A DNA stretch of 64,000 nucleotides from an uncultured Alphaproteobacteria bacterium (GCA_902550225.1 CACCYL010000002.1:13539-77538), one strand, 5' to 3'; counted from the first letter of the stretch, positions 14,936-31,851 are shown. The notes: a model not told the origin generated them from the letters alone. A program made the numbers and translations.

Positions 14936-17242
14936 ATGAAAAACGGTAACGAAAACATAGTCCAAACCTTGGAGAAGCTAAGAAGAACCGAGCTCTTACT
15001 TCAGATATCTAGAAAAATTGCTGGACTTAAATCCTTAGAGGAGATTTTGTGGACACTTATAGAATTCGTTACTAATGAGTTAGATGCAGATAGAGGAACA
15101 TTATTTTTAAATGATAACGAAACTAATGAACTTTATTCAAGAGTTGCTCAAGGGGACTTGACTCGCGAAATAAGAATTTTAAATAACGTGGGAATTGCAG
15201 GTGCAATTTTTCAAAACAAGTCTGGGGAAGTCATTCATGACGTTTATGCCGATTCCCGTTTTAACAAAGAAGTTGATCAGGAAACAGGTTATAAGACAAA
15301 AAATATGATTTGTTGTCCAGTTAAAACTGTTGACGGACTGACGATAGGCGTTATTCAAGTTTTAAATAAAAGAAAGGGAAGATTTACAAAAGATAATCTT
15401 TTCTTTGCAGAGTCAATTGCTACCCAAGCCGCTGTATCAATTCAAAATGCGCAAAATACGGAACATTTTGAAAAAAAAAGAGCTAAAGAAATGGAGTTTA
15501 TAAGTATTGTTTCTGATGTCACAGCTGAAATCGATTTAGGAGCTTTGCTGCAAAGAGTGATGGAGGAGGCAACACGAATGCTCAATGCTGACAGGGCTAC
15601 ATTATTTTTAAATGATGAAAAAACCAATGAATTATTTTCAAGGGTAGCTATGGGGGAAGGCATTGGTGAGATAAGACTTCCTAACACTGCAGGAATTGCA
15701 GGATCAGTTTTTACTTCTGGTAAATCAATGAATATTCCCTATGCCTATGCTGATTTAAGATTTAATCCTTCATTTGATAAACAGACAGGGTATTTTACTC
15801 GTTCGATTTTGTGTGTACCTGTTGTAAATAAAGAGGGTAAGGTAATTGGTTGTACACAAGTTTTAAATAAGAGTGGTGGCAAGTTTACAGATGAAGATGA
15901 ATCTAGGTTAAAGGCATTTACTCAACAAGTTGCAATTGCTCTTGAAAATGCCAAGCTTTTTGAAGATGTATCTAAATCTAGAAAGTATAACGAAAGTATG
16001 CTTTCTAGTATGTCTAACGGAGTTATAACAATCAATAGTGAAGAAGAAATTGTTACTTGCAACAAATCTGGCTTAAAAATACTGCGAACTAAAGATTTAG
16101 ATATAATAAAAAAGCAATCCAAAGATTTTTTTTCTGGAAATAAAAAATGGATATATGAGAAAATTAAGAGTGTTGGTGAATCAAAAGAACCAGAAATTAT
16201 TGTTGACGCTGAAATAGAGGTTTTCGACAATGAAACAGAAAAAGAAGAAAAAATATCAGTAAATTTGACAATACTTCCACTGATAAATGAAGATAGTGAT
16301 GGAAGAACAGATCAATCAGACAATTTTCTTGGCACTTTATTGATGTTTGAAGATATTTCTTCAGAAAAAAGAATGAAATCAACAATGTCTAGATACATGG
16401 ATCCTGGAATAGCAGATCAATTATTAGAGGATGGATCAGACATCATGGGAGGGCTAGAAACAACCGCAACGTTGTTGTTTTCTGATTTAAGAAGTTTTAC
16501 TACCATTACAGAGTCGTTGGGTGCTCAGGGTACTGTAAAATTATTAAATGAATATTTTGAAATAATGGTTGAATGCATATCAGAGCAGGGGGGTATGTTA
16601 GACAAATTTATTGGAGATGCAATTATGGCGGCATTTGGTCTTCCAATATCACATGAAGATGACGAAGATAGGGGTGTTAAAGCTGGTATCAATATGATCA
16701 AAAGATTATGGGAGTGGAACGAGCAAAGAGAAAAAGACGGCAAACCTCCTGTTGATATGGGATTAGGATTAAATACGGACAAAATTGTGGCAGGAAATAT
16801 CGGATCACAAAAAAGAATGGATTACACGATGATCGGTGACGGTGTGAATTTAGCAGCGCGTTTAGAAAGTGCATGCAAACAATATAGTGCAAGAATTTTA
16901 ATTAGTGACTATACATTTAAAAAACTAAAAGGAACTTATCGCATTAGGTATATTGATGATGTTGTTGTTAAAGGAAAAAACGAACCTATTGGTGTTCATG
17001 AAGTTTTAGATTATCACACTGATAAAACTTTTCCGAATTTAATGGATGTTGTAAATCATTTTAATGAAGGTAGAAAACATTATAAAAGTGGAAGTTTTGA
17101 AAAAGCTATTTCATCTTTTAATGAATGTCTTAAATCAAATTCTCAAGATAACTTATCAAAAACATACATTGAGAGATGCAATTTGTTAATAGAGGAGAAA
17201 CCAACTGATTGGAACGGTGTTTGGGTAATGAAAAGCAAATGA
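14936..17242 (+). CDS. GAF-GAF-PAS class III adenylate cyclase (CyaB1-like architecture)
   Basis: Two GAF repeats (DADRGTLFL and NADRATLFL; NKxxGxF), PAS-like MSNGVI segment, catalytic FSDLRSFT, DKFIGDA, YTMIGDGVNLAARLE, TPR-like tail. Confidence 0.93.
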   Translation: MKNGNENIVQTLEKLRRTELLLQISRKIAGLKSLEEILWTLIEFVTNELDADRGTLFLNDNETNELYSRVAQGDLTREIRILNNVGIAGAIFQNKSGEVIHDVYADSRFNKEVDQETGYKTKNMICCPVKTVDGLTIGVIQVLNKRKGRFTKDNLFFAESIATQAAVSIQNAQNTEHFEKKRAKEMEFISIVSDVTAEIDLGALLQRVMEEATRMLNADRATLFLNDEKTNELFSRVAMGEGIGEIRLPNTAGIAGSVFTSGKSMNIPYAYADLRFNPSFDKQTGYFTRSILCVPVVNKEGKVIGCTQVLNKSGGKFTDEDESRLKAFTQQVAIALENAKLFEDVSKSRKYNESMLSSMSNGVITINSEEEIVTCNKSGLKILRTKDLDIIKKQSKDFFSGNKKWIYEKIKSVGESKEPEIIVDAEIEVFDNETEKEEKISVNLTILPLINEDSDGRTDQSDNFLGTLLMFEDISSEKRMKSTMSRYMDPGIADQLLEDGSDIMGGLETTATLLFSDLRSFTTITESLGAQGTVKLLNEYFEIMVECISEQGGMLDKFIGDAIMAAFGLPISHEDDEDRGVKAGINMIKRLWEWNEQREKDGKPPVDMGLGLNTDKIVAGNIGSQKRMDYTMIGDGVNLAARLESACKQYSARILISDYTFKKLKGTYRIRYIDDVVVKGKNEPIGVHEVLDYHTDKTFPNLMDVVNHFNEGRKHYKSGSFEKAISSFNECLKSNSQDNLSKTYIERCNLLIEEKPTDWNGVWVMKSK

Positions 17243-18006: not shown

Positions 18007-19344
18007 ATGAAATTGTGGATAAGTAGTAATATGGGAAAATTTTTAATAGGGTTTGTATTTTTGATGTGTGCTGGATCACTTGTATCAGCACAAGAAGTAA
18101 AAGATGAGGTTATACCTTATAATCTAAAAGCTGCACTTAAGTCAGTTTTGAATAATCATAAGACAATATTGGCAACAAAAAGTGATATAGAGGCTGCCAA
18201 GTTAAGACTAAAACAATCCAGGGGTGGCTATTTTCCTTCGTTAGATGTTACAGCCAACTACGGACATGAAAATATCATAAAATATGGACCAGGAAACAAC
18301 ACACAATTGATGGGAAGGGACGCAACAGCAAAAATAACTCAAACAATTACAGATTTTGGTTTAACAAAATCAACAGTAGAAACATCTAGATTATCATTAA
18401 AACAAACACGAGCAACTGAAACACAAATTAAAAATGACATTTTATTAAGAGCAATCTCAGCATACTTGAGAATAATTCAATCAAGGGAAAGTGTGCGGTT
18501 CGCAAGACAATCTGTTGCAAACATAAAAAAACAAACCGAACTCGAAGATGCAGCAGTAACTGCTGGAGGTGGACTTACTTCGGATGTTCTCCAAGCAAAA
18601 ACTCAATTAGCTGGTGCTCAGGCACGTTTAATTCAGTTTGAAGGTGTGTTAGCCACTTCTAGACATGAATTTGAATATGTTTTTAATTCATTTCCAGATA
18701 ATTTAAATTCTTTGGTACTCCTCAAATCTGTTTTTGATAAATTACCTAAATCTCTAGAAGAGGCTGAAGAAATAACTATGAAAAATAATCCTTCACTGAT
18801 TGCAGCACGAATCACAGAGGATATCGGTAAAGAAGCAATAAACACAGCTAAATCTTCTCTTTTTCCAACTGTTAAAGGGATAGTGAGTCATTCAGAAAAA
18901 CAAGATTTTGGTGGTGTAGTAGGATTCAAAAGAGAAACCTCTGCAAAGTTAGACTTTGCATATCCATTAAATCTAAGTCTTTCGGAATATGCTGGTAAAG
19001 ATGCGGCGATTGAGTCTTATTTAGCAACCTCTACTAGAATAAGAGATCAAGAGGATATGATTAAACAAATGCTCAGGACTACATGGGACGGTTTAAAAAC
19101 AGCTCAACAAAATTTTCAGTTTCTTACTAATCAGGCAAGAATCTCTGGTGAATTTTTAGAGCTTGCAAGACAAGAAAGAAAAGCAGGAAATCGAACTTTA
19201 CTTGACGTTTTAGGTGGTGAGACTGCTCTAATTAATGCCCAAGCCGATGCAATTGCAGCACAAATTGAAGTTCTCATAAATAGTTACACTTTAATGAGTT
19301 TAATGGGGGGACTTTCAATTGAATCGATTGAATTTGTTGAATAA
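18007..19344 (+). CDS. TolC family outer-membrane channel
   Basis: Signal peptide, YFPSLDV, RTLLDVL, two-repeat OEP architecture. Confidence 0.92.
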   Translation: MKLWISSNMGKFLIGFVFLMCAGSLVSAQEVKDEVIPYNLKAALKSVLNNHKTILATKSDIEAAKLRLKQSRGGYFPSLDVTANYGHENIIKYGPGNNTQLMGRDATAKITQTITDFGLTKSTVETSRLSLKQTRATETQIKNDILLRAISAYLRIIQSRESVRFARQSVANIKKQTELEDAAVTAGGGLTSDVLQAKTQLAGAQARLIQFEGVLATSRHEFEYVFNSFPDNLNSLVLLKSVFDKLPKSLEEAEEITMKNNPSLIAARITEDIGKEAINTAKSSLFPTVKGIVSHSEKQDFGGVVGFKRETSAKLDFAYPLNLSLSEYAGKDAAIESYLATSTRIRDQEDMIKQMLRTTWDGLKTAQQNFQFLTNQARISGEFLELARQERKAGNRTLLDVLGGETALINAQADAIAAQIEVLINSYTLMSLMGGLSIESIEFVE

Positions 19345-19345
19345 A

Positions 19346-19375: not shown

Positions 19376-19400
19376 ATTTCGCCTATAGTTAAAACTGGAT

Positions 19401-22400
19401 ATGAAAGGAAATAGTCAACAAATAAATTTCAACGACAGTGGGTTTTTAACTAAAATATATGCTGGCAGCACCATTGACATTGAAGGATTGCCAAGTTGGT
19501 TACCAAAGGCAAATTTTTCAAAAACGCAAACAGACCTTCTGATAACTTCACCAGCTGGCGATGAAATATTATTAGTAGATTTTTTTACAAATTTTGAACT
19601 TCCCTCACTCAAAACCGAAAATGGTTTATTACTTAAAGGCACTTTAATTGATACTTTATCTGGATCATTCACACCTGGACAGTACGCGCAAGCCAATAAT
19701 GCAAATGCACTTTCGATTGGAGAGGTTTCTAGTGTTACGGGAGAGGCAAAAGCAACTCGTTTGGACGGATCAACTGTTAATCTTGCAACTGGAGATCCAG
19801 TTTTTCAAGGAGATACTGTAGAAACTACTGGGGCAGGGGCAATTGGATTAGTATTTCTTGATAAAACAACTCTCTCATTATCGGAGGGTGGAAAAATGGT
19901 TTTAGATGAACTTGTATATGACCCTGCAACAGGAACTGGAAGTATGGCCGTTGACATGGTTGAGGGAGCTTTCAGTTTTGTGAGTGGCGAGATTGCTAAA
20001 ACTGGGCCAGATGCAATGAAAGTTTCAACACCGGTTGCAACTATTGGGATAAGAGGAACTACGGTTGCAGGTAAAGCTGCAGTTGAAGGCAACGAAAACT
20101 CATTTACACTTCTACAAGACGCTGATGGAGGAGTAGGACAAATATCTGTGAGTAATGCCGGTGGAACTCAAGTTCTAGCACAGGTTGGTGCGACCACGAG
20201 TATAACGAGTTTTACAGCTCCACCCCCACCCCCAATTATTTTAAGTGCAGCACAAATTCAAGCAAATTATGGAACAGCTTTAAATGTTTTACCACCAACG
20301 CCTGTGGTTGCTCCAACACCACAACCACCCCCACCGCCTCAAGAACAACAACAGGAGCAAGTTCAAGAAGAGGAGTCTCAAGAGGAAGAAGAGGCAGTAG
20401 AAGAGGAGGCTGTTGAAGAGGAATTACAAGAGGAGGGAGAAGGTCCTCCAGAAGGAGAGGAGGGAGAAGGTCCTCCAGAGGGTGAAGAAGGAGAAGGTCC
20501 TCCAGAAGGAGAAGGTCCTCCAGAAGGAGAAGAGGGCCCGCCGATTGGACCTGATGGAGAACCGTTAGCAGAAGAAGGACCTCCCGAAGGAGACGGCCCG
20601 CCGATTGGACCTGATGGAGAGCCATTAGCAGAAGGAGAAGGCGGTCCACCAATAGGACCTGATGGAGAACCCTTACCACCTGGAGAAGGCGGTCCGCCGA
20701 TTGGACCCGATGGAGAGCCACTAGCTGACGGTCCACCAATAGGACCTGATGGAGAACCCTTACCGCCTGGAGATTTTGGTCCTGGAGGCCCGCCGATTGG
20801 ACCCGATGGAGAGCCACTAGCTGACGGCCCACCAATAGGACCTGACGGAGAACCCCTGCCACCTGGAGATTTTGGTCCTGGTGGTCCTACACCTGAACAA
20901 GACGCAGCTGCAAGAGAGGCTTTTGAAACTGCATTGGCCGCCGGTTTATCTCCTGAAGAAGCAATGGCAGAAGCCGCTGCTGCTGCTGGAATTCCTCCAC
21001 CACCAGGAGGGTTCGGAGGAGATCCTTTGTCAGCAACAGTTGGAGGTGATGAGTTTGCAGGAGGTCCTCTTGGTCCAGGCGGTCCAGGAGATTTTGGTCC
21101 GGGAGGTCCAGGAGACTTTGGTCCTGGTGGTCCAGGAGACTTTGGTCCGGGAGGTCCAGGAGATTTTGGTCCTGGTGGTCCAGGAGACTTTGGTCCTGGT
21201 GGCCCAGGAGACTTTGGTCCGGGTGACCCTGATGATTTTGGTTTTGGAGGTCCAGGAGATTTTGGTCCAGGAGGCCCAGGAGATTTTGGTCCTGGTGGTC
21301 CAGGTGGATTCGGTGATCCACTTTCATTTTTAGGACCCGCTCCTGATAATGCCGCAACTTTTGCGCCTCTAGGTGGTCCAATGGATCCTAATGATCCATT
21401 TGCTGCTTTCGGGGGGAATGCTTTTGGTGATAGCCCAATTGGTTTGCCAGGTGGTCCAGGCGGTCCTGGTGGTCCAGGAGACTTCGGTCCGGGAGGTCCC
21501 GGTGGTCCAGGAGACTTCGGTCCGGGAGGTCCTGGTGGTCCAGGAGATTTTGGACCAGGTGGAGGACCTGGAAATTTCGATTCTGGCTCGGGCGGTGATC
21601 AAGGGTCCTTTGGAACTTTTCTTCCACCAGGTTCTTTTCAACCACCTGGTACTGTTCAACAGCCAGGTGCTTATATCCCAGCTCAAGTAGGTTTTGCTCC
21701 AATTGCACCTGTTACAACAGCTCCCGTAATTGGTTCGGGTTTTTCAGCCAATGATGGTGGTGGTTTTCACGGAGGTCCTGGTGGACCTGCAGGTTTTGAT
21801 CCAGGTGGGGGTCCCGGTGATTTTGGTCCAGGTGGTCCAGGTGGTCCCGGTGATTTTGGTCCGGGAGGTCCAGGAGACTTTGGTCCAGGAGGCCCTGGTG
21901 GCTTTAGTCCAGCTGGCTTTGGTGCTGATGGCTTTGGTCCAGGAGGCTTTGGTCCTGCAGGCTTTGGTCCTGCAGGCTTTGGTCCTGGAGGCTTTGGTCC
22001 AGGAGGTTTCGGTCCTACGGGTTTTGGTCCTGGAGGCTTTGGTCCAGGAGGTTTTGGTCCTGCAGGTTTTGGTCCTGCAGGCTTCGGTCCTGCAGGCTTT
22101 GATCCATATGGTCCTGATCCAAGCGGTGGAGTGCCTGCTGGAGATTTTTATTATGAAGATGCAAGTATGTATGAGAATACTGGAGAAGCAGAAGGTTCTG
22201 AATCTGGAAGCGGAAGTGGAGGTGGAAGTAGTGGGACTACATTCATAGGATCAAATAATGTTGATAACGTTGATAAATCTGCGGAATCCGTCGCATGGCG
22301 TTTTGAAGGTTATAGCGGGGCAGATATTTTCAAGGGTGGGTCTGGTGATGATATCTTTTGGGGAGCAATTGATGGTGATACTTTAACTGGTAATGCTGGG

Positions 22401-22883
22401 CAAGATACTTTTTATTTTGGTGATATGACTGAAGGAAATGATACAATAACGGATTTCACAGTTGGAGCTAGTGGTGATGTATTAAAGTTTAACACTGCGT
22501 TTCAAACAAGTTCATATACAAGAGATGCATCGGTTGTCAATATGGTACAGCTTCACGGTACATCTTATAATATGGGATCCAATTCAAATGTTCTTCCAAC
22601 AATTTTTAATTTTACATCACAATTTTCATCAGCAAATACAACAGCAGGCGTTACAAATCAGCTTACAAGTTTCAAAGTTACAACGGATGGTTCAACTCCA
22701 ATTTCAACTGCAACTGATTTTATTATTGTAACAGGAGATACAAGTACTAATGGTCATGTCTATGGATGGTCAGACAGTGGAAATGGTGTTATTGATAATG
22801 GAGAACTTTTTGGTTTAGCAACCTTAACTGGTGTTGACAATGATAACATTGGGGCAACAAATTTCACTTTTGGTCCAATATAA
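19401..22883 (+). CDS. Putative T1SS cargo: BapA-prefix-like + FecR-like domain + Gly/Pro repeat region + RTX C-terminus
   Basis: No Sec signal; GDPVFQGD...TPVATIGIRGT FecR-like core; long acidic G/P repeats; 4 GGxGxD-type nonamers; lies between tolC and ABC/hlyD. Confidence 0.85.
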   Translation: MKGNSQQINFNDSGFLTKIYAGSTIDIEGLPSWLPKANFSKTQTDLLITSPAGDEILLVDFFTNFELPSLKTENGLLLKGTLIDTLSGSFTPGQYAQANNANALSIGEVSSVTGEAKATRLDGSTVNLATGDPVFQGDTVETTGAGAIGLVFLDKTTLSLSEGGKMVLDELVYDPATGTGSMAVDMVEGAFSFVSGEIAKTGPDAMKVSTPVATIGIRGTTVAGKAAVEGNENSFTLLQDADGGVGQISVSNAGGTQVLAQVGATTSITSFTAPPPPPIILSAAQIQANYGTALNVLPPTPVVAPTPQPPPPPQEQQQEQVQEEESQEEEEAVEEEAVEEELQEEGEGPPEGEEGEGPPEGEEGEGPPEGEGPPEGEEGPPIGPDGEPLAEEGPPEGDGPPIGPDGEPLAEGEGGPPIGPDGEPLPPGEGGPPIGPDGEPLADGPPIGPDGEPLPPGDFGPGGPPIGPDGEPLADGPPIGPDGEPLPPGDFGPGGPTPEQDAAAREAFETALAAGLSPEEAMAEAAAAAGIPPPPGGFGGDPLSATVGGDEFAGGPLGPGGPGDFGPGGPGDFGPGGPGDFGPGGPGDFGPGGPGDFGPGGPGDFGPGDPDDFGFGGPGDFGPGGPGDFGPGGPGGFGDPLSFLGPAPDNAATFAPLGGPMDPNDPFAAFGGNAFGDSPIGLPGGPGGPGGPGDFGPGGPGGPGDFGPGGPGGPGDFGPGGGPGNFDSGSGGDQGSFGTFLPPGSFQPPGTVQQPGAYIPAQVGFAPIAPVTTAPVIGSGFSANDGGGFHGGPGGPAGFDPGGGPGDFGPGGPGGPGDFGPGGPGDFGPGGPGGFSPAGFGADGFGPGGFGPAGFGPAGFGPGGFGPGGFGPTGFGPGGFGPGGFGPAGFGPAGFGPAGFDPYGPDPSGGVPAGDFYYEDASMYENTGEAEGSESGSGSGGGSSGTTFIGSNNVDNVDKSAESVAWRFEGYSGADIFKGGSGDDIFWGAIDGDTLTGNAGQDTFYFGDMTEGNDTITDFTVGASGDVLKFNTAFQTSSYTRDASVVNMVQLHGTSYNMGSNSNVLPTIFNFTSQFSSANTTAGVTNQLTSFKVTTDGSTPISTATDFIIVTGDTSTNGHVYGWSDSGNGVIDNGELFGLATLTGVDNDNIGATNFTFGPI
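20535..22105 (+). repeat. Intragenic GC-rich tandem repeats (GPPIGPDGEPL x7; PGDFGPGG 24-bp units; GFGPx 15-bp units x~14)
   Basis: Directly visible in DNA and protein; third codon positions vary between units. Confidence 0.95.
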
Positions 22884-22906
22884 AGCTCCTAATAAATAGA
22901 GCTTTT
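22882..22906 (+). terminator. Weak hairpin after the first FecR/RTX gene
   Basis: AAAGCTC...GAGCTTT followed by a short T run. Confidence 0.35.
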
Positions 22907-22924
22907 AACTAAATAAATTTCCTT

Positions 22925-22954
22925 TTAGGTCGTAAATATAGCATTAACAGTGGT
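22925..22954 (+). promoter_or_regulatory. Bipartite motif TTAGGTC-N14-AACAGTGGT (copy 2)
   Basis: Matches 19346-19375 in both half-sites and in the 14-nt spacer length. Confidence 0.5.
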
Positions 22955-22963
22955 TCGTGGAAT

Positions 22964-25618
22964 GTGTATAATGAAAATCAAATAAATGTCATTAAAATTG
23001 ACAAAGTAGACTCAATACGATCATCTATTGAAGGTCTAAAAGACAAGCTTTTTATCAATGATCTTAAAAAAGATCTTCAAGAATTCATAGATACAAATGT
23101 TGAATTAGATAAAAGCAATAATCATTTAAAAATCCCAACAATTAAAGAGGCTCCCTCTTGGTTTCCGAAAGCTAACTTATCAAAAACGCAAACGGATTTA
23201 ATAGCAACATCAGTTGATGGCGAAGAATTCATTTTTTTTGATTATTTTACAAATCATCGACTCCCATCTATCCAAACAGAAAATGGTTTAAATTTTCATG
23301 GAGGTTTAGTAGATAGGTTGGCTGGTTTATTTGCAAAAGGTCAGTATGTTCAGGCGTCTCTTGATGGTGAGTTATCGATCGGAGAAGTGTCGAGTTTAAC
23401 GGGTGTAGCCAAAGCAAAACGAGTTGATGGTAGCGAATTTAACTTATCAAATGGTGACCCTGTATTTCAAGGAGATACAATAACAGTTTCAAATTCTGGT
23501 GCGGTTGGTCTGACATTTTTGGATAAAACCACGTTATCTTTATCGGAAGGTGGAAAGATGCTTTTAGATGAGTTGGTTTATAATCCTGAAACTGGGGATG
23601 GGAATATGACTATCGACATGGTTGAGGGTGCATTCAGTTTTATAAGTGGAGAGATAGCAAAAACTGGAGAAGATGCCATGACCATAAAAACGCCTGTTGC
23701 AACCATCGGAATTAGAGGAACTACAGTTGCCGGTAAAGCTGCGGTGGAAGGAAACGAAAACTCATTTACTTTACTTCAGGATGCCGATGGAGGAGTAGGG
23801 CAAATATCTATCAGTAACGCTGGAGGCACACAAATACTAGAACAAGTTGGTGCAACCACAAGTGTAGTAAGTTTTAATGCCCCACCACCTCCACCAATTA
23901 TTTTAAGCGCTGCACAGATTCAAGCTAATTATGGAACAGCTTTAAACGTTTTGCCACCTACACCAACTGTAGCACCCACACCGCAAGAGGTTCCAGCACA
24001 ACAAGATCAACAGCAAGAAGAAGCTCAAGAAGAAGCTTCAGAAGAAGAATCTGATGAAGAAGCAGAAGAAACTTCGGAAGAAGTTATAGAAGAAGAAGGT
24101 TCTTTAGAAGGAGAAGAGGAATTAGCTGAAGAGGAGGAATCAATAGAGGAAGAAATAGCAAGAGTTGAAGAAGATTTATTCGAGGAGGGTGCTCCAGAGA
24201 ACCAAGCACTAGCAGAAGAAGAGGTCGTAGCGGAAGAAGAACTAGCTCTACCACCTGAAGAAGCTCAACCTGGAGGTGATGAACAAGCTGCTCGAGAAGC
24301 CTTTGATACTGCACTTTCAGCTGGAGCATCTCCTGAACAAGCAATGGCCGAAGCAGCCGCAGCCGCTGGTTTTGATGAATCTGTGGCTCGAGAATCAGCA
24401 CTAGATAGTGGCCCATTAGGAGACCCTACTTTTGCACAAACATTTGCTCCTGGAGTTGGGGGGACAATATTAGGTTTACCACTTGGACCTGAACCAATCA
24501 ACGCTAGTCAAGATTCTGTAATGATACCGGTTTTTGGAATGGGGCCAGCATTTGGATCTGCAACAATGGATGTATTTGGAGGTCAGTTAAGTGGGAGATT
24601 TGAAAACTCTCTTCAAGCTGCTTCTGGTTTTGGAGACGAAATATTTGGATTTTTGGATGAAAATCCTTATAGTTTTTCTGATACAGAGTCTTCTGAAAGT
24701 TATTTTTTTGACGATCCGTCACTTTATGATGATTACAGGAAACAAGATTTTGATCAATCAACAGAAATCTCAAGTTCACAAACAACAAATACTTTTGATG
24801 GTACAAATTTAAACGACACCATTGATAAATCTTCTGAAACCGCAAGTGTCATCATAAATGGATTAGATGGAGCCGATACACTTGAAGGAGGAATAAATAA
24901 TGACACAATTAATGGAGGTGATGGGATTGACAAACTAGTTGGTAATCAAGGTGATGATATTTTAAGAGGTGATGATGGTAATGATTTTATTTTTGGAGGT
25001 GATGGTAAGGACAAATTGATTGGAGGTTTGGGCGATGATGAACTTAACGGTGGTGACCAAGATGATGTAATTGTTGGAGGTCTAGGTAGCGATACTCTTT
25101 ATGGAAATGATGGTGACGACAAATTTTATTTTGAACCAGGTCACATAGATGGAACTTCAAAAGATGAAATAATTGATTTTAGAGTGAGTGGTAATGATTT
25201 GATTGTCGGTTCTCAAGCTCCTTCGTCAGCTTATAATCGAAGTTCAATACATACAGATTCGTCTCAGTTTGGTAGTAACTATGATATTACCAGTAACTCC
25301 AATGAGTTACCCTACTTATTCAATTTTACCAATGATGTAACAACAGCCATTGCTGAGAGTTCTTCTGCTCTTGCTAATCACTTCACTGGTTTTTCAATAA
25401 GTGTAAGTGGAAGTGGAACTAATGATTTTGAAAATGAATCAATGTACATAAGCGTAGGTGACGGAACAGATACATATATTTGGTTTTGGACAGACACCAA
25501 TAATCATCATGGGATGATAGCTGATAGCGAACTTGAACCATTTGCTAAACTAAGTAATTATGATAATGATAATTTAACTGGTAACGAATTTTTATTTCAA
25601 ACAATTTCTGGAGTTTAA
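22964..25618 (+). CDS. Paralogous T1SS cargo: FecR-like domain + Glu-rich linker + RTX Ca-binding repeats
   Basis: FecR-like block nearly identical in protein to that of 19401; 10 tandem GGxGxDxLx-type nonamers (~24860-25130); GTG start uncertain. Confidence 0.85.
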   Translation: MYNENQINVIKIDKVDSIRSSIEGLKDKLFINDLKKDLQEFIDTNVELDKSNNHLKIPTIKEAPSWFPKANLSKTQTDLIATSVDGEEFIFFDYFTNHRLPSIQTENGLNFHGGLVDRLAGLFAKGQYVQASLDGELSIGEVSSLTGVAKAKRVDGSEFNLSNGDPVFQGDTITVSNSGAVGLTFLDKTTLSLSEGGKMLLDELVYNPETGDGNMTIDMVEGAFSFISGEIAKTGEDAMTIKTPVATIGIRGTTVAGKAAVEGNENSFTLLQDADGGVGQISISNAGGTQILEQVGATTSVVSFNAPPPPPIILSAAQIQANYGTALNVLPPTPTVAPTPQEVPAQQDQQQEEAQEEASEEESDEEAEETSEEVIEEEGSLEGEEELAEEEESIEEEIARVEEDLFEEGAPENQALAEEEVVAEEELALPPEEAQPGGDEQAAREAFDTALSAGASPEQAMAEAAAAAGFDESVARESALDSGPLGDPTFAQTFAPGVGGTILGLPLGPEPINASQDSVMIPVFGMGPAFGSATMDVFGGQLSGRFENSLQAASGFGDEIFGFLDENPYSFSDTESSESYFFDDPSLYDDYRKQDFDQSTEISSSQTTNTFDGTNLNDTIDKSSETASVIINGLDGADTLEGGINNDTINGGDGIDKLVGNQGDDILRGDDGNDFIFGGDGKDKLIGGLGDDELNGGDQDDVIVGGLGSDTLYGNDGDDKFYFEPGHIDGTSKDEIIDFRVSGNDLIVGSQAPSSAYNRSSIHTDSSQFGSNYDITSNSNELPYLFNFTNDVTTAIAESSSALANHFTGFSISVSGSGTNDFENESMYISVGDGTDTYIWFWTDTNNHHGMIADSELEPFAKLSNYDNDNLTGNEFLFQTISGV

Positions 25619-25670
25619 GATGTTATATGTTTATTTTGAGGGTAAGAGAGTGATATTATAAAATAATATT

Positions 25671-27260
25671 ATGAAGTTTTGGTTTCACATATTAAAAGAA
25701 AGTAACTCTCTAAATACTATTCTTTTATTGACTTTTTTTATTACTATAATGGGTTTATTAAGCCCAATTTTTATTATTCACATTTTTAATAGATATATCG
25801 CATTTGGCCTTCAGGGTACTTTGTTTTTTTTATTATCAGGTGCTCTTTTAGTTGCAGTATTCGAGTATATATTTAGGAATATAAGGAGTAAAATTTTATG
25901 TGAAATTCTCATAAATCCAATAAAATTTTTTAAATTAGACCTAATCAAAACATTTTTTGAGAGAGAAAATAAAACATCAAAAAGAAATTTTGTTGAAATA
26001 ATTGATTTCAACAATAATTTTTTTCAATTCATATCACCTAAAGTTCAGTCAAATCTTCTCGACTCAATTTTTGCAATTTTAATTATTATTATTCTTTTTT
26101 TTCTAGACCTTTTATTAGCAACAATTTTTTTAATTCTTGTTATTATTTTCCTGTTATTGCAACAAAGATTAATAAAAAATAAAAATCTAAACTTGGAAAG
26201 ATTAAATTTATCTAAGAATGATAAATTAATAATTAAAGAGATTGGAACTAATCAAGAGCTTTTAAAATCTACTCTAGCATTTAAATATTCTGGATATTAT
26301 CTAGAAAATTACTTAAATAAAAAATTAAAAATCGACTCTTCAACTGCAAATTTTGATGCTCAACAAATTTCCACCACGAGTTTTTTTGTTTTGTTATCAT
26401 CAATCATTACTATTGGATTTGGGAGTATCTTTGTGGTGAATGGAAATCTCTCTATTGGTAGCCTGATAGGATTTAATATATTTGCTACTCGAGCGTTGGG
26501 TACAATTTCATCAGTTCAAAATTCATATTCCATTATTGAGAGAACAAATATGTATCTTAGTGATTGCCAAGATTTTTTTAAAAATTCTAAAAATCGAGTT
26601 GAGGGTATGCAACTTAGTAAAATTATTGGGAATTACAAACTTAAAAATGTAAACTATTCTTTTGATAATGATAATAAGTATATAATTAAAAATTTCTCTG
26701 CTAATTTTAATTCTTCAGAAATTTCAGTTATTAGCGGAGCGAATGGCTCCGGAAAGACCACAATTGCAAAATTGCTCATGGGACTAATTAATCCAGAATC
26801 TGGAGATATTTTATTAGATGAAACTAATTTGGAGAAACTATCATTGCAATGGTATAAGAATCAAGTAGCTTATATACCTGAAGATGTTGAAGTGTTAAAT
26901 TCATCAATTTTAAATAATATTTTAATATCCAACCCTGATCTGAATGAACAAGAGGTAAGTAGACTGCTTCAAAATGTTGGATTAGATAAAGAGTTAAAAA
27001 AATCAGATTTAACAATAACTGATTCTATAAATAAAAATTATTCAAAAGGGATTTTAAAAAAAATACATATTGCACGGTCGATTTCAAAAATCTATCAAAT
27101 TTATATTTTTGATGATCCGTTATTATATCTAGATAAATTAGGTAAAAATATGGTACTTAAATTGATAGCCTCATTAAAAAGAGCTGGAAAAACTGTAATT
27201 TGTTTTTCAGAAGATACTGAAATTATTAAATTAAGTGATAAACAAACTAATTTAGGGTGA
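25671..27260 (+). CDS. T1SS ABC transporter (TMD+NBD) with degenerate ATPase motifs
   Basis: Walker A GANGSGKT; signature YSKGI, Walker B IYIFDD, no switch His (CFSED). Confidence 0.85.
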   Translation: MKFWFHILKESNSLNTILLLTFFITIMGLLSPIFIIHIFNRYIAFGLQGTLFFLLSGALLVAVFEYIFRNIRSKILCEILINPIKFFKLDLIKTFFERENKTSKRNFVEIIDFNNNFFQFISPKVQSNLLDSIFAILIIIILFFLDLLLATIFLILVIIFLLLQQRLIKNKNLNLERLNLSKNDKLIIKEIGTNQELLKSTLAFKYSGYYLENYLNKKLKIDSSTANFDAQQISTTSFFVLLSSIITIGFGSIFVVNGNLSIGSLIGFNIFATRALGTISSVQNSYSIIERTNMYLSDCQDFFKNSKNRVEGMQLSKIIGNYKLKNVNYSFDNDNKYIIKNFSANFNSSEISVISGANGSGKTTIAKLLMGLINPESGDILLDETNLEKLSLQWYKNQVAYIPEDVEVLNSSILNNILISNPDLNEQEVSRLLQNVGLDKELKKSDLTITDSINKNYSKGILKKIHIARSISKIYQIYIFDDPLLYLDKLGKNMVLKLIASLKRAGKTVICFSEDTEIIKLSDKQTNLG

Positions 27261-27264
27261 AAAG

Positions 27265-28536
27265 ATGACAGAGAAATGGGTAAAATGGAATTTATTAAAA
27301 AACGATGAAAAACCAAAAAACGTTATTAGTAAAAGACTTAAAGTATCATTAATTCTTTTCTCACTTATTTTTTTGTTGCTAGTGAATTTAAAAATTATAG
27401 AGGTATTAAGCCTAGCTGACGGAAAAATAATTCCCCAAGGAAGAATAAAGTATGTGCAACATTTGGAGGGAGGAATAGTTGAAGAAATACTGATTAGTGA
27501 AGGTGAAAAAGTTGAAATAAATCAACCTTTAGTTGTTTTATCGAAAGAAAAAGCAAGCTCTGAATTTGAGGAGATTAACTCAAGACTTAAATCAATTGAT
27601 TTGTCGATACTAAGAGTTAATTCTGAAATAAATTCTAATAATTCAATAGAAATTCCTGAAAATAAAAATAATTTATTTGATGAGGAATTAGTAAAATCTG
27701 AAAATGAACTTTTTCAAAGTAGAAGAAAAGCAATCAATTCTGAAATAAAGTCTAAGAAAGCAAGTATTGATAAAGCTAACAAAAATCTCAAAAATTTAAA
27801 AAAAAGATTAAAAATCGTTAAAGAACAAGAAGATATTAGTCAAAAATTGTTAGAAGTTGAAGCAACAAATAGATTAAAGCATTTAGAAATTTTAAGAGAA
27901 AGGCAGGAGGTTGAAGGGAGTATCGACGAACAACAATCTATTATTGATTTGAGCAAGAATGACTTAGAAAAGGTGCAAAACAATTACATAGAAGATTTAA
28001 ATATCGAGTTGTCAAAGTACCGAAAAGAAAAAGAAGAACTTAATAAAAGAATTCAGAAATATTCAGATAACTTAAATAGAACTATTTTAAAAAGCCCTGT
28101 ATCTGGAACAGTAAAACTTGTATCGGTAAATTCTAAAGGTGCTATTGTTGCTCCTGGTGTGACTGTAGTTGAAATTGTACCTGAAAATGAAAAACTAATT
28201 ATTGAGGCAAAATTACCTTTATCAGAAATTGGCTATGTAAAAAAGAACCTTGAAGCAAAAATTAGATTAAATACACCTGAAGGCTCTAGGTTTAGATCAA
28301 TAAAAGGGAATGTTGTTTTTGTAGGGGCTGATAGAATTTCTAGTAAAGACGAAGAGGGTTTTTATTTAGTCAAGGTGGAAACCTCTGAAAACTCTTTTGC
28401 ACGAAAAAACGAGGAATATAAACTTTTGTCTGGTGTTCCAGTTATGGTTGGTATTATAACTGGTAAAAGAAGTTTTATGGATTATTTCTTAACGCCTTTT
28501 ATAACAGGTGCAAGCTTTGCATTATCTGAAAGGTAA
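27265..28536 (+). CDS. HlyD family T1SS membrane fusion protein
   Basis: VQHLEGGIV, coiled coil, KSPVSGTV, GKRSFMDYFLTP. Confidence 0.93.
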   Translation: MTEKWVKWNLLKNDEKPKNVISKRLKVSLILFSLIFLLLVNLKIIEVLSLADGKIIPQGRIKYVQHLEGGIVEEILISEGEKVEINQPLVVLSKEKASSEFEEINSRLKSIDLSILRVNSEINSNNSIEIPENKNNLFDEELVKSENELFQSRRKAINSEIKSKKASIDKANKNLKNLKKRLKIVKEQEDISQKLLEVEATNRLKHLEILRERQEVEGSIDEQQSIIDLSKNDLEKVQNNYIEDLNIELSKYRKEKEELNKRIQKYSDNLNRTILKSPVSGTVKLVSVNSKGAIVAPGVTVVEIVPENEKLIIEAKLPLSEIGYVKKNLEAKIRLNTPEGSRFRSIKGNVVFVGADRISSKDEEGFYLVKVETSENSFARKNEEYKLLSGVPVMVGIITGKRSFMDYFLTPFITGASFALSER

Positions 28537-30946: not shown

Positions 30947-31414
30947 TTATTCAACATGACTTGTTGACTTCTCTAATCTGTAAAGAATTTGCTTTGTTAT
31001 TTTTTTAATTATTTGATTCTCAGACTCTATAATCTCATCTATTTCATCATGAGAATAATGTACATTTTGATACTCATTTCTTTTAGCAAGTTCTTTACAT
31101 AAATTTAAAATTACTTTTTGTGCGGCCTTTGATCCAGAATTAATTAGTTCATCAAGATTTTCTTTACTTATAGATATCAACTCTGTGGATTGACTTGAGG
31201 TAATGGTTGCGCTTCTGTTTTGTTGTAAAATTAAAGCCATTTCACCAAAAACCTCTCCATCTCTCATAGACCCAACTTTTTTTCCATCAACTAATACGTC
31301 CAGCGATCCAGAAACTATCATGTAAGCTTTATCGCCTTTGTCGCCTTGATTAAAGAGCGTCTCGCCCTCTAACATCAAAACTTTTGTTGTTTTTCCGTGA
31401 CTTATCTCTTTCAA
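30947..31414 (-). CDS. Stand-alone cyclic-nucleotide-binding protein
   Basis: LFNQGDKG, FGEMALILQQNRSAT phosphate-binding cassette; no HTH evident. Confidence 0.9.
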   Translation of the reverse strand: MKEISHGKTTKVLMLEGETLFNQGDKGDKAYMIVSGSLDVLVDGKKVGSMRDGEVFGEMALILQQNRSATITSSQSTELISISKENLDELINSGSKAAQKVILNLCKELAKRNEYQNVHYSHDEIDEIIESENQIIKKITKQILYRLEKSTSHVE

Positions 31415-31851
31415 GAAAATATCCTTTGAGATAATCTATAGTGAATCTGAAGCGCTAAAGCTCTTATTACGTTGGGAGAGTCCTTAGTTAGTTTTACAAG
31501 ATCAGCTTTGGTAATTGGAAGTTTTTGGTTATCTGATTTTCCTAATTCCTTAGACATTTCATTAATTACTTTATGAAGATCAATGTTAGAGGATAATAAA
31601 ATAGCTTCCAACGCCTTTCTTTTTATTTCAACAATTTCACTTGGTACAATTGCTTTTATGCTCGCAGTTCTGTTTTCATTTAGAATTAAAGACAATTCTC
31701 CAAAGATTTCACCTGTTTCAATTTTTCCTATCTTTTTTCCTTCAATTTCTGCAACTAGTCCACCTGAAATAACTAGAAAAGCTGTTTCTCCTTTTTCGCC
31801 CTCTCGAACAATATATTGATCTGGAAGAACTCTTATTTTTTTTAAACCCAT
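31411..31851 (-). CDS. Stand-alone cyclic-nucleotide-binding protein
   Basis: IVREGEKG, FGELSLILNENRTAS; paralog of 30947. Confidence 0.9.
   Translation of the reverse strand: MGLKKIRVLPDQYIVREGEKGETAFLVISGGLVAEIEGKKIGKIETGEIFGELSLILNENRTASIKAIVPSEIVEIKRKALEAILLSSNIDLHKVINEMSKELGKSDNQKLPITKADLVKLTKDSPNVIRALALQIHYRLSQRIFS

What the first reader, a model, noticed from the sequence alone, without database searches (positions are those of the whole stretch)
19401..25618. Paired signal-less FecR-like/RTX proteins resembling tethered adhesins
Seen: both proteins share an N-terminal DL(L/I)xxxxxGxExxxxD(F/Y)F block. They then share about 200 aa of near-identical FecR-like sequence with many synonymous differences, followed by unrelated linkers (Gly/Pro versus Glu-rich) and RTX C-termini. 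Established: BapA-prefix and LapA retention modules are N-terminal domains that keep T1SS cargo anchored in TolC, and FecR-domain genes often neighbour CHASE2 cyclases. Inference: the N-terminal domain may stay in the periplasm as a plug and signal to the CHASE2 cyclase while the disordered stalk is outside, giving a trans-envelope sensor.
Basis: partly seen in the sequence, partly recalled or inferred. Interest (0 to 1): 0.78.

Follow-up and report, generated by a model that had tools for sequence, protein, structure and literature searches.

The report
Tethered RTX proteins with FecR-like plug
Two neighbouring genes of a small marine bacterium encode secreted calcium-binding proteins whose conserved head resembles both the plug that ties giant adhesins to the cell and a periplasmic signalling domain, and such proteins repeatedly sit beside a membrane enzyme that makes cyclic AMP, which hints at an undescribed way of sensing the outside.

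Summary
The genes at 19401-22883 and 22964-25618 encode signal-less paralogues. They share an ungapped 285-residue N-terminal module (75% identical, dS saturated, dN/dS about 0.15), have low-complexity stalks, and end in RTX C-termini. They lie inside a TolC/ABC/HlyD operon.

The module folds confidently (pLDDT 89). Residues 135-296 match FecR-type signalling domains (PupR, Z 15.6). Residues 103-199 are homologous to the solved anchoring plug of an RTX adhesin (5ix9; profile E 4e-10, Z 7.8). The same module heads proteins of up to 11,725 residues across Pseudomonadota. It stays below NCBI's LapA retention-module cut-off, and no LapG was found in any of 42 genomes of the order.

In at least 14 other alphaproteobacterial families, and in some other classes, module-bearing proteins lie in cassettes of TolC, substrate, ABC, HlyD and a CHASE2 adenylate cyclase. 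The link is not universal: only 4 of the 76 closest loci show it.

Best reading: these are type I secreted proteins tethered by their plug and functionally coupled to cAMP signalling. Direct contact between plug and CHASE2 remains inference. Three earlier notes of this scan describe the same kind of locus on other DNA. This is a new variant of a known kind.

The parts
14936..17242 (+). GAF-GAF-PAS class III nucleotide cyclase heading the co-directional block
   Evidence: Pfam GAF 131 bits, Guanylate_cyc 81.7 bits
17209..17961 (+). Possible HD-type cyclic-nucleotide phosphodiesterase (weak)
   Evidence: Pfam HD E 0.011 and PDEase_I E 0.062, both below cut-off
18007..19344 (+). TolC-type outer-membrane channel of T1SS-A, with a signal peptide
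   Evidence: OEP 186 bits; TIGR01844 190.7 bits, below its cut-off of 225; hydrophobic N-terminus, KD 2.49
19401..22883 (+). P0001, 1160 aa: prefix + FecR-like plug module, Glu-rich then Gly/Pro/Phe-rich stalk, short RTX region and C-terminal domain
19479..20333 (+). Conserved N-terminal module of P0001 (aa27-311). aa27-100 is the prefix with the DLxxxxxGxE...DFF hairpin block; aa103-199 is the plug-like half; aa135-296 is the FecR-type domain
   Evidence: AF2 pLDDT 89.4, pTM 0.82. PupR 6ovk/6ovm and 4m0n at Z 15.6; 5ix9 at Z 7.8. 5ix9 sequence at E 4.2e-10
20334..22205 (+). P0001 stalk (aa312-935): 32% Gly, 21% Pro, no Lys, net charge -101, tandem repeats, local GC 54%
22206..22880 (+). P0001 RTX repeats and C-terminal domain (presumed secretion signal region)
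   Evidence: HemolysinCabind 23.7 bits on this piece; 27% identical to the P0002 C-terminus, E 3e-23
22964..25618 (+). P0002, 884 aa: 59-aa variable leader, the same module (aa60-344), Glu/Ala-rich stalk, 7 RTX motifs, C-terminal domain
23141..23995 (+). Conserved N-terminal module of P0002 (aa60-344)
   Evidence: BLASTP 75% to P0001; FecR 27.7 bits; NF033682 23.8 bits, sub-threshold
25671..27260 (+). ABC exporter of T1SS-A, 529 aa, without an N-terminal C39/CLD domain
   Evidence: ABC_tran 80.5 bits; TIGR03375 206 bits and TIGR01842 160 bits, both below cut-off
27265..28536 (+). HlyD-family membrane fusion protein of T1SS-A
   Evidence: TIGR01843 288.5 bits, cut-off 208.65
30947..31851 (-). 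Two small cNMP-binding proteins downstream of the CHASE2 cyclase
   Evidence: cNMP_binding 65.6 and 55.6 bits
31867..34242 (-). CHASE2-sensor class III adenylate/guanylate cyclase; periplasmic CHASE2 domain about aa27-395
   Evidence: CHASE2 158.8 bits, Guanylate_cyc 71.1 bits; conserved about 10 kb from the module genes in 21 genomes of the order
34239..35963 (-). HlyD-family protein of T1SS-B with an N-terminal cNMP-binding domain; overlaps the cyclase gene by 4 nt
   Evidence: cNMP_binding 70.4 bits; TIGR01843 219.7 bits
35970..38141 (-). HlyB-like ABC exporter of T1SS-B with a C39-like N-terminal domain
   Evidence: ABC_membrane 113.9 bits, Peptidase_C39 25.3 bits; TIGR01846 487.9 bits, below cut-off
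38232..39218 (-). 328-aa acidic Pro/Gly/Asp/Met-rich low-complexity ORF in the substrate slot of T1SS-B
   Evidence: translation; no Pfam hit
39331..40656 (-). Second TolC-type channel (T1SS-B)
   Evidence: OEP 190.7 bits

Best explanation
P0001 and P0002 are anciently duplicated substrates of the adjacent type I secretion system (TolC, 529-aa ABC, HlyD). They are exported C-terminus first. The RTX/C-terminal part folds outside with calcium. A long acidic, Gly/Pro-rich disordered stalk follows it through the channel. The roughly 285-residue N-terminal module, a FecR-fold domain whose first half is homologous to the anchoring plug of RTX adhesins, folds before export and cannot pass, so the protein stays tethered with its head at the periplasmic end of TolC. 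The locus is one form of a recurrent cassette in which such substrates and their T1SS are joined to a CHASE2-sensor adenylate cyclase. Surface display is therefore functionally coupled to cAMP rather than to the c-di-GMP/LapD/LapG control of classical Lap systems. What is shown: domain homologies, the fold model, the gene order and its recurrence, and purifying selection. What is inferred: export by this T1SS, retention, and the direction and mechanism of the coupling. I put direct contact of the periplasmic FecR-like head with the CHASE2 domain at about 0.3.
For: T1SS cargo features: RTX repeats, a position between TolC and ABC/HlyD, and no hydrophobic N-terminus. These two are the only RTX matches in the 63%-complete genome. 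Module structure and homology: the model has pLDDT 89.4. FecR-type domains 4m0n and 6ovk/6ovm match at Z 15.6 with 137-138 residues aligned; 5ix9 matches at Z 7.8 with 75 of 76 residues at rmsd 2.0; the next hit is at Z 6.2 or lower. The family profile matches the 5ix9 sequence at E 4.2e-10. NF033682 matches at E 4-6e-5 on profile positions 4-68. Distribution: the same module sits at the N-terminus of 14,642 representative clusters (1,048 at E<=1e-30) in proteins of up to 5000 aa, and in open frames of up to 11,725 aa. Some of these carry adhesin repeats and RTX. Of 40 complete module ORFs in 76 loci, 31 have RTX motifs, and 31 of the 76 loci have T1SS genes within 10 kb. Selection: dN/dS about 0.15 with saturated dS. 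A tandem pair lies on one contig in 17 of 30 module-positive genomes of the order. CHASE2 link: in the order, 26 of 30 module-positive genomes have CHASE2, and in 21 both lie on one contig about 10 kb apart. In the class sample, 121 of 125 module-positive genomes have CHASE2, against 60 of 276 module-negative ones. In the phylum sample the figures are 43 of 43 against 134 of 258. At least 15 of about 73 listed prefix-bearing matches outside the own family have a listed CHASE2 gene within 17 kb; this is a hand count from truncated lists, against a rough chance expectation of about 2%. Of 20 such regions fetched, 17 hold a signal-less N-terminal-module protein, 13 of them with RTX motifs. T1SS genes flank these proteins, and an HlyD gene lies directly upstream of the CHASE2 gene in 8 regions from 7 families, as HlyD_B does in the window. 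The other 3 regions hold FecR-domain proteins with a Sec-type N-terminus. Because both export types pair with CHASE2, the periplasm is the only compartment in which both could meet it. Literature: passages in PMC9239204, PMC5192318 and PMC5498481 report FecR-domain genes next to CHASE2 receptors. Passages in PMC12036975 show that the FecR domain folds in the cytoplasm before export. Passages in bioRxiv 10.1101/2025.09.30.679566 describe the retention module as a calcium-independent periplasmic plug.
Against: Nothing here shows secretion, retention or binding; all of it is sequence, model and gene order. The LapA retention model scores 23 bits against a cut-off of 50, and only over its first half. 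The plug starts about 100 residues from the N-terminus, not at it. No Ig-like extenders are present. No LapG was found in 0 of 42 genomes of the order, 9 of them of high quality, so a known release and regulation route is missing. Among the 76 loci most similar to the module, CHASE2 was found in only 4, of which 3 belong to the window's own clade. That scan covered 110 flanking ORFs of 570 aa or more, and many of the giant genes ran off their loci. The CHASE2 link is therefore a property of some lineages, not of the module as such. In the window the cyclase is not in the substrates' operon. It lies 6 kb away on the other strand, in a second T1SS operon. The 20 cassette regions were chosen because both genes shared a contig.
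Confidence: 0.55

Rival explanations
1. Plug only. The proteins are tethered T1SS surface proteins, but the FecR-like head is just a stopper. The neighbouring cyclases, cNMP-binding proteins and the cNMP-binding HlyD regulate expression or secretion through cAMP made in response to some other CHASE2 signal. The head does not talk to the cyclase.
For: Homology to the 5ix9 anchoring plug. The module heads giant adhesin-like proteins in many lineages that lack a CHASE2 neighbour (72 of 76 loci). A cNMP-binding domain is fused to HlyD_B, and two cNMP-binding proteins follow the cyclase, as expected if cAMP acts on secretion. A cNMP-HlyD and ABC lie directly upstream of giant module genes in L010 and L014 without CHASE2.
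Against: It does not explain why FecR-domain proteins of both the Sec type and the T1SS type recur next to CHASE2 genes (PMC9239204, PMC5192318). It does not explain why the module keeps a complete FecR-type domain of about 160 residues when 5ix9 shows that a 76-residue plug suffices. It does not explain why nearly every module-positive genome has CHASE2.
Confidence: 0.28
2. Fully released exoproteins. The proteins leave the cell completely, like RTX enzymes or S-layer-type proteins, and the N-terminal module acts outside (binding, self-association) or only as an export aid.
For: The retention model is below its cut-off. There is no LapG/LapD and there are no extenders. The plug is not at the extreme N-terminus.
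Against: All solved relatives of the fold act on the periplasmic side: FecR-type domains, and the 5ix9 entry titled 'Cell surface anchoring domain'. The module models as a compact domain of about 270 residues without calcium sites. FecR domains fold in the cytoplasm (PMC12036975 passages), which is hard to reconcile with passage through TolC. The module is the best-conserved part of the protein and is always N-terminal, that is, the last part to be exported.
Confidence: 0.12
3. Self-cleaving tether. As in FecR and FoxR, the FecR-like domain cuts itself at a Gly-Thr pair (here the invariant R218-G219-T220). The stalk would then be held only non-covalently and could be released by force or by a signal, replacing LapG.
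For: G219 and T220 are invariant in 18 close sequences and G219 in 43 diverse ones. [quoted passage not shown] No LapG is present.
Against: The equivalence of the two Gly-Thr pairs was not established. hhalign gives probability 0.14. A non-significant BLASTP alignment (E 2.8) places FecR Gly181-Thr182 opposite G224-K225, which has no nucleophile.
Confidence: 0.1

Closest known systems
Retention module (RIN plug) of RTX adhesins: PDB 5ix9 'Cell surface anchoring domain' / 'Antifreeze protein' (that this is region I of the Marinomonas primoryensis ice-binding adhesin is recalled, not taken from a call), and LapA-type 'retention module-containing proteins' (NF033682)
   Same: It is an N-terminal, calcium-independent beta domain on a T1SS substrate with RTX C-terminus. 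Residues 103-199 superpose on all 76 residues of 5ix9 (Z 7.8, rmsd 2.0, 24% identity) and the family profile finds its sequence at E 4e-10. A flexible segment follows the domain.
   Different: The plug here is the first half of a complete FecR-type domain and is preceded by a conserved prefix of about 75 residues. NF033682 is matched only on positions 4-68 of 145, at 23 bits against a cut-off of 50. There are no Ig-like extenders and no ligand-binding region; a disordered acidic Gly/Pro stalk takes their place. No LapG is found in the order.
C-terminal cell-surface-signalling domain of FecR-type anti-sigma factors (PupR, PDB 6ovk/6ovm; BDI_1681, PDB 4m0n/4m0h; Pfam PF04773)
   Same: Pfam FecR passes its cut-off. 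The fold match is Z 15.6 over 137-138 residues. In these relatives the domain is periplasmic and binds a partner protein that reports from the outer membrane.
   Different: There is no anti-sigma N-domain, no transmembrane helix and no Tat or Sec signal. No ECF sigma factor or TonB-dependent transducer gene was seen between 8 and 46 kb of the window. The domain is fused to RTX cargo.
FecR-domain protein / CHASE2 receptor gene pairs: the Burkholderia 'BiofilmReg' LysM-FecR + CHASE2 histidine kinase (PMC5192318), the Campylobacterota CHASE2 adenylate cyclase + PDE + FecR-domain + TPR cluster (PMC9239204), and S. meliloti smc02177 (PMC5498481). Passages only were read in each paper.
   Same: A FecR-fold protein is encoded beside a CHASE2 sensor, here a class III cyclase with a possible PDE and cNMP-binding proteins nearby. 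The pairing recurs across families.
   Different: In the published cases the FecR protein is described or predicted as extracytoplasmic and Sec-exported. Here, and in 17 of 20 cassettes examined, it is the head of a signal-less T1SS substrate, and the cyclase gene follows HlyD inside a T1SS operon. The held library had no paper with both CHASE2 and RTX apart from one unrelated imaging paper.
Lap system of Pseudomonas fluorescens (LapA, LapEBC, LapD, LapG). Its description is recalled and partly supported by passages of bioRxiv 10.1101/2025.09.30.679566 and the listing of PMC10990149.
   Same: A T1SS substrate is held at the surface by an N-terminal module and controlled by a nucleotide second messenger through an inner-membrane receptor with a periplasmic domain.
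   Different: The messenger is probably cAMP made by a CHASE2 cyclase, not c-di-GMP read by LapD. There is no LapG protease. Which way the information flows is unknown.

Membership tests
RTX-type T1SS substrate | Glycine/aspartate-rich nonapeptide repeats near the C-terminus | tested here: met
   HemolysinCabind 52.7 bits in P0002. In P0001: 23.7 bits on the C-terminal piece and 29.2 bits in the genome search.
RTX-type T1SS substrate | No N-terminal signal peptide | tested here: met
   Hydropathy only: maximum 15-residue KD mean 1.25 and 0.12, against 2.49 for the TolC signal peptide. No dedicated signal-peptide predictor was available.
RTX-type T1SS substrate | Adjacent ABC exporter, HlyD-type adaptor and TolC-type channel | tested here: met
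   Gene order TolC / P0001 / P0002 / ABC / HlyD with gaps of 4-80 nt.
RTX-type T1SS substrate | Secretion by that system demonstrated | not testable with these tools
   Needs an experiment.
LapA-like adhesin with retention module (NF033682) | Match to the retention-module model above its cut-off | tested here: not met
   23.3 and 23.8 bits against a cut-off of 50; only profile positions 4-68 of 145 are matched. 8 of 15 distant relatives score 27.8-38.8 bits, also below the cut-off.
LapA-like adhesin with retention module (NF033682) | Plug domain homologous to the solved anchoring domain | tested here: met
   5ix9: profile E 4.2e-10; Z 7.8 with 75 of 76 residues aligned.
LapA-like adhesin with retention module (NF033682) | LapG-type periplasmic protease (Peptidase_C93) in the genome | tested here: not met
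   0 of 42 genomes of the order, 9 of them at least 90% complete; none in the own genome, which is 63% complete. LapD was not searched.
LapA-like adhesin with retention module (NF033682) | Tandem Ig-like extender domains | tested here: not met
   No Ig/Big/cadherin family in either protein. The stalks are low-complexity. Some distant relatives do have such domains.
FecR-type cell-surface-signalling anti-sigma factor | FecR domain (PF04773) and its fold | tested here: met
   28.8 and 27.7 bits against a cut-off of 24; Z 15.6 to PupR and BDI_1681.
FecR-type cell-surface-signalling anti-sigma factor | Cytoplasmic anti-sigma domain plus a single transmembrane helix | tested here: not met
   No such Pfam or NCBIfam hit; no hydrophobic 19-residue stretch above 1.3.
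FecR-type cell-surface-signalling anti-sigma factor | Neighbouring ECF sigma factor and TonB-dependent transducer | tested here: not met
   Not among the genes scanned between 8 and 46 kb of the window.
BapA prefix-like domain (PF22783 / NF033677) | Match to the prefix models | tested here: not met
   No hit on the N-terminal pieces even at E<=10, nor in NCBIfam at E<=0.01. Sub-threshold hits on the same hairpin block occur in 1 of 10 relatives (PF22783, 22.3 bits) and 4 of 15 relatives (NF033677, 19-22.5 bits).
FecR-domain / CHASE2-receptor neighbourhood | FecR-fold gene close to a CHASE2 sensor gene, conserved across genomes | tested here: met
   The gap is 6.2 kb in the window. Both lie on one contig about 10 kb apart (domain to domain) in 21 genomes of the order. 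The pairing recurs in at least 14 other families.
FecR-domain / CHASE2-receptor neighbourhood | Physical or functional interaction of the two proteins | not testable with these tools
   No experiment was possible. The one modelling job gave no verdict (see Tried and rejected).

The most novel reading that the evidence does not exclude
A trans-envelope 'tethered' cell-surface signalling pathway. The T1SS substrate stalls in TolC with its calcium-folded RTX end and disordered stalk outside, and its FecR-fold head in the periplasm. There the head binds the CHASE2 domain of the adenylate cyclase, as FecR-type domains bind their outer-membrane partners. Pulling on, loss of, or binding to the external part would then change cAMP synthesis. 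The cAMP would feed back on secretion through the cNMP-binding HlyD and the small cNMP-binding proteins. This would give CHASE2, whose signals are largely unknown, a defined protein partner, and would show T1SS cargo acting as a sensor.
Probability: 0.25. Interest if true: 0.85.

Novelty: new variant of a known kind. Interest (0 to 1): 0.62.

Why it matters
RTX adhesins anchored by an N-terminal plug are known, and so are FecR-domain genes next to CHASE2 sensors. This locus joins the two ideas: the plug is itself a FecR-type signalling domain, and the T1SS that exports it repeatedly carries a CHASE2 adenylate cyclase as an operon member. If the coupling is real, it offers a testable protein partner for CHASE2. 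PMC5192318 says the factors that CHASE2 recognises are unknown, and PMC13001267 reports that in S. meliloti CHASE2 cyclases respond to a protein signal relayed by an outer-membrane protein. It would also be a cAMP-based counterpart of the c-di-GMP Lap switch. And it shows that even a 1.2-1.4 Mb streamlined marine alphaproteobacterium devotes about 25 kb to two T1SSs, two cyclases and four cNMP-binding domains. The module family is very large (14,642 representative clusters), so a function assigned here would annotate many giant 'hypothetical' surface proteins.

Tried and rejected
- **Complex prediction.** I sent the CHASE2 periplasmic domain (aa27-395, alignment A3) with the module (aa27-300, alignment A2). 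The result was 'no answer': score 0.00 in both runs, mark 0.32, controls not run. It counts neither for nor against binding.
- **First structure model.** The model from the shallow 18-sequence alignment had pLDDT 61. I discarded it for the 43-sequence model.
- **Sandbox search for CHASE2.** A search of the 76 loci with the window's CHASE2 domain, once and iterated, found only 4 loci. I distrusted its sensitivity and repeated it with Pfam on 110 flanking ORFs. Pfam found the same 4 loci, so the low rate is real for what those loci cover.
- **Mapping the FecR self-cleavage site.** hhalign gave probability 0.14 and BLASTP gave E 2.8. The mapping is not established.
- **Models that did not hit.** BapA-prefix models on the two proteins gave no hit. 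LapG was not found.
- **Promoter and terminator scan.** It found 58 promoter-like sites against 51.4 +/- 8 expected. It does not help define the operon. A near-consensus site at 22944-22972 overlaps the P0002 start and was not pursued.
- **ORF328 against P0001.** Only compositional similarity.
- **Paper search 'FecR' + 'LapA'.** It returned unrelated uses of the acronyms.
- **Paper search 'FecR / retention module / type I secretion'.** Of 47 papers holding at least two of the terms, none of the 15 listed held both FecR and 'retention module'.
- **Metatranscriptome contigs.** Four seawater runs from one study cover 25-27 of 30 bins of 17900-28600 at 92-99% likeness. These are short contigs of relatives in RNA libraries that may contain DNA, so I take them only as a weak hint that the operon is transcribed. 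Parts without cover mean nothing.
- **ESM Atlas look-up of the P0002 C-terminus.** It gave RTX calcium-binding clusters only.
Full report
**What is there.** The window is AT-rich (31% GC) and comes from a 1.2-Mb, 63%-complete assembly of a low-GC marine alphaproteobacterium; record titles of close relatives read 'uncultured Alphaproteobacteria' or 'Rickettsiales bacterium'. A co-directional block runs from 14.9 to 28.5 kb. In order it holds:
- a GAF-GAF-PAS cyclase;
- a small ORF with weak HD/PDE similarity;
- TolC;
- P0001 (19401-22883, 1160 aa);
- P0002 (22964-25618, 884 aa);
- a 529-aa ABC exporter;
- an HlyD-family adaptor.

Facing it on the other strand is a second T1SS operon: TolC, a 328-aa acidic Pro/Gly-rich ORF, an HlyB-like ABC with a C39-like domain, an HlyD with an N-terminal cNMP-binding domain, a CHASE2 class III cyclase that overlaps that HlyD by 4 nt, and two small cNMP-binding proteins. 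A DUF1538 gene and two P-II-like genes lie between the two operons.

**The observation.** It is confirmed.
- P0001 aa27-311 and P0002 aa60-344 align without a gap at 75% identity.
- The DNA is 70.9% identical. There are 107 synonymously different and 72 non-synonymously different codons. dS is saturated (about 1.4) and dN is 0.21. In aa198-254, protein identity is 91% and dN is 0.074.
- Both proteins pass the Pfam FecR cut-off and carry RTX repeats.
- Neither has a hydrophobic N-terminus or any transmembrane-like stretch.
- The stalks differ. P0001 has 624 residues with 32% Gly, 21% Pro, no Lys and net charge -101, built from tandem repeats that raise local GC to 54%. P0002 has 256 Glu/Ala-rich residues.
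- The stalks still share an acidic start, a helix motif and a short aromatic-acidic motif, and the C-termini are 27% identical.
- The tandem pair is old. 17 of 30 module-positive genomes of the order carry two copies on one contig.

**The N-terminal module.** With a 43-sequence alignment of diverse relatives, AlphaFold2 gives a confident model (pLDDT 89.4, pTM 0.82).
- Foldseek and two VIA-align runs agree on the top hits. The FecR-type periplasmic domains of PupR (6ovk/6ovm) and BDI_1681 (4m0n/4m0h) match at Z 15.3-15.6 over model residues about 135-296.
- Next comes 5ix9, 'Cell surface anchoring domain', at Z 7.8, with 75 of its 76 residues aligned at rmsd 2.0 on model residues 103-199. Everything else is at Z 6.2 or below.
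- The family profile finds the 5ix9 sequence at E 4.2e-10 and nothing else real in the PDB.
- NCBIfam's LapA retention-module model matches the same stretch at E 4-6e-5, but at 23 bits (cut-off 50) and only over its first 68 of 145 positions.
- Residues 1-90 form a small beta unit with only weak matches to beta-roll ends (Z about 6). The BapA-prefix models do not hit it, although some relatives give sub-threshold hits on the same hairpin block.

The module is therefore a conserved prefix plus a complete FecR-fold domain whose first half is homologous to a known adhesin plug. That 5ix9 is the N-terminal part of region I of the Marinomonas primoryensis ice-binding adhesin is my recollection.

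**How widespread the module is.** A full HMMER scan of 1.84 billion representatives finds 14,642 clusters at E<=0.001 and 1,048 at E<=1e-30. In the best 150 the match always lies at the N-terminus, in proteins of 192 to 5000 residues.
- Of the distant members scanned, 7 of 10 pass Pfam FecR and 5 of 10 carry RTX. Some carry cadherin-like, tandem-95, VCBS or BapA/LapF-type repeats.
- In genome samples the module heads open frames of up to 6913 aa (class) and 11,725 aa (phylum, other classes included).
- Among the 76 loci most similar to it, 31 have T1SS genes within 10 kb, and 31 of 40 complete module ORFs have RTX motifs.

This is what one expects of an anchoring head for T1SS surface proteins. 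Passages of bioRxiv 10.1101/2025.09.30.679566 describe the retention module as the only part that folds without calcium and that plugs the channel from the periplasm. Passages of PMC12036975 show that the FecR domain of E. coli folds, and even self-cleaves, in the cytoplasm before export. That fits a domain which is already folded when the rest of the protein is threaded out.

**What is missing for a Lap-type system.** No Peptidase_C93 (LapG) was found in the own genome or in any of 42 genomes of the order, 9 of them at least 90% complete. There are no Ig-like extenders. The only Ala-Ala pair after the domain lies in a confidently modelled helix, not in a free linker. These proteins should not be filed as LapA family members, though they probably work like them in being plug-anchored.

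**The CHASE2 link, evidence for.**
- *Order.* 30 of 42 genomes have the module and 33 of 42 have CHASE2. 26 have both, and in 21 both lie on one contig with the domains about 10 kb apart. This is one inherited island and counts as a single observation. One genome, however, has a second, 35%-identical module gene with its own TolC, ABC, HlyD and CHASE2 cyclase (L095).
- *Class sample (401 genomes).* 121 of 125 module-positive genomes have CHASE2, against 60 of 276 others.
- *Phylum sample (301 genomes).* The figures are 43 of 43 against 134 of 258. Genome size and kinship inflate such numbers.
- *Same-contig neighbours.* Counting by hand in the truncated lists (150 of 276 module matches and 150 of 398 CHASE2 matches are shown), at least 15 of about 73 prefix-bearing matches outside the own family have a CHASE2 gene within 17 kb on the same contig. 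I estimate about 2% by chance.
- *Fetched regions.* I fetched 20 such regions, chosen because both genes shared a contig. 17 contain a protein of 931-3433 aa with the module at its N-terminus and no strongly hydrophobic leader, and 13 of those have RTX motifs. They come from 14 families. T1SS genes surround them, and an HlyD gene lies directly upstream of the CHASE2 gene on the same strand in 8 regions from 7 families, exactly as HlyD_B does in the window. In 14 of the 20 the CHASE2 protein also matches the window's cyclase catalytic domain.
- *Sec-type cases.* The remaining 3 regions hold shorter FecR-domain proteins with Sec-type hydrophobic N-termini. Because FecR-fold proteins of both export types pair with CHASE2, the one place where both could meet its sensor domain is the periplasm. 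That is where a retained T1SS head would sit.
- *Other classes.* Same-contig neighbours also appear in other classes of the phylum (G439, G460, G512, G520).

**The CHASE2 link, evidence against.** The link does not belong to the module as such. In the 76 loci closest to the window's family, a Pfam scan of the N-terminal 430 residues of all 110 flanking ORFs of at least 570 aa found CHASE2 in 4 loci, and 3 of those are from the window's own clade. Many of the giant genes ran off their 10-kb flanks, so downstream neighbours are unknown. Several of these loci instead have a cNMP-binding HlyD plus ABC, and DUF1538, next to the module gene (L010, L014). In the window itself the cyclase belongs to the second, oppositely oriented T1SS operon, not to the substrates' operon.

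**Literature.**
- Passages of PMC9239204 describe Campylobacterota CHASE2 adenylate cyclases clustered with a phosphodiesterase, a FecR-domain protein and a TPR protein.
- Passages of PMC5192318 describe a LysM-FecR protein next to a CHASE2 histidine kinase in Burkholderia and Pseudomonas, and state that CHASE2 signals are unknown.
- Passages of PMC5498481 identify a FecR domain in S. meliloti SMc02177.
- Passages of PMC13001267 say that the S. meliloti CHASE2 cyclases respond to a plant protein through the outer-membrane protein NsrA.
- A search for CHASE2 with RTX found one unrelated paper. CHASE2 with 'adenylate cyclase' and 'outer membrane' found four papers, none on T1SS by their listings or the passages read.

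I therefore found no description of T1SS-borne FecR heads paired with CHASE2 cyclases in the held library. Subscription journals and supplements were not covered.

**Earlier notes of this scan.** Three describe the same kind of locus on other DNA:
- e1-2868998: plug-anchored T1SS proteins.
- e1-4777981: cAMP genes flanking a Lap-like locus in a near relative.
- e1-2083887: a T1SS operon with a CHASE2 cyclase in Micavibrio-like bacteria.

I saw them after stating my own reading. They agree with it. I tested the plug homology and the cassette recurrence independently.

**Mechanism and verdict.** Most likely (0.55) the two proteins are T1SS cargo held at the surface by their folded FecR-like head, with a long polyanionic disordered stalk and a calcium-folded RTX end outside, and the system is wired to cAMP. 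It is topologically sensible and fits the comparative data, but nothing here shows contact. The single complex-modelling job gave no verdict (see Tried and rejected). The rivals are a plug with independent cAMP regulation (0.28), full release (0.12), and a self-cleaving tether at the invariant Arg-Gly-Thr (0.1, not exclusive of the others). This is a new variant of known kinds (RTX adhesin retention; FecR-CHASE2 neighbourhoods), of moderate to high interest because it makes the CHASE2 partner question experimentally approachable.

Noticed in passing
window 38232-39218 (-): A 328-aa signal-less, very acidic Pro/Gly/Asp/Met-rich low-complexity ORF (GPDGPPPGDM-type repeats, local GC about 42%). 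It lies between the second TolC and the C39-like ABC, that is, in the substrate slot of the second T1SS operon. It has no Pfam hit and only compositional likeness to the P0001 stalk.
   Followed up: partly
window 34239-35963 (-): An HlyD-family adaptor with an N-terminal cNMP-binding domain, translationally coupled (4-nt overlap) to the CHASE2 cyclase. Similar cNMP-HlyD + ABC pairs lie just upstream of giant module genes in L010 (Magnetovibrio sp. MAG) and L014. This suggests T1SS gating by cAMP.
   Followed up: partly
window 17209-17961 (+): A small ORF between the GAF cyclase and TolC with weak HD (E 0.011) and class I phosphodiesterase (E 0.062) similarity. It is a possible cAMP phosphodiesterase, which would echo the PDE in published CHASE2 cyclase clusters (PMC9239204).
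   Followed up: partly
window 28538-30909 (-): A DUF1538 membrane protein followed by two P-II-like genes lies between the two T1SS operons. DUF1538 also sits beside the T1SS or module genes in L005, L007, L008 and L010.
   Followed up: no
window 25671-27260 (+) and 35970-38141 (-): In both T1SS ABC proteins the residue after the Walker B aspartate reads Asp (FDD / LDD), and the signature motif is degenerate (translations). That HlyB-type exporters have Glu at this position is recalled. Not analysed further.
   Followed up: no
window 20052-20060 (P0001 R218-G219-T220) and the matching site in P0002: An invariant Arg-Gly-Thr lies in the FecR-like domain. FecR and FoxR self-cleave at a Gly-Thr pair (PMC12036975 passages). 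Whether the two sites are equivalent could not be established.
   Followed up: partly
window 20334-22205 (+): The P0001 stalk is built of 14 GPGGPG(D/G)F, 11 GFGP(A/G/T) and 7 P(I/V)GPDGEPL units. Metatranscriptome contigs show in-frame length variants: 9 nt left out at 20477 and at 21824, and a skip of 96 nt at 20693-20790.
   Followed up: no
L095 (G010:C12:4000-16500): One genome of the same family carries a second, 35%-identical module protein (1327-aa frame, no RTX motif by my pattern) followed by TolC, ABC, HlyD and its own 646-aa CHASE2 cyclase. A near-duplicate of that CHASE2 gene lies on another contig.
   Followed up: partly
window 5234-5306, 40784-40857, 42122-42195, 59406-59478: Four tRNA genes. 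Two of them flank a Sel1-repeat gene just beyond the second TolC.
   Followed up: no
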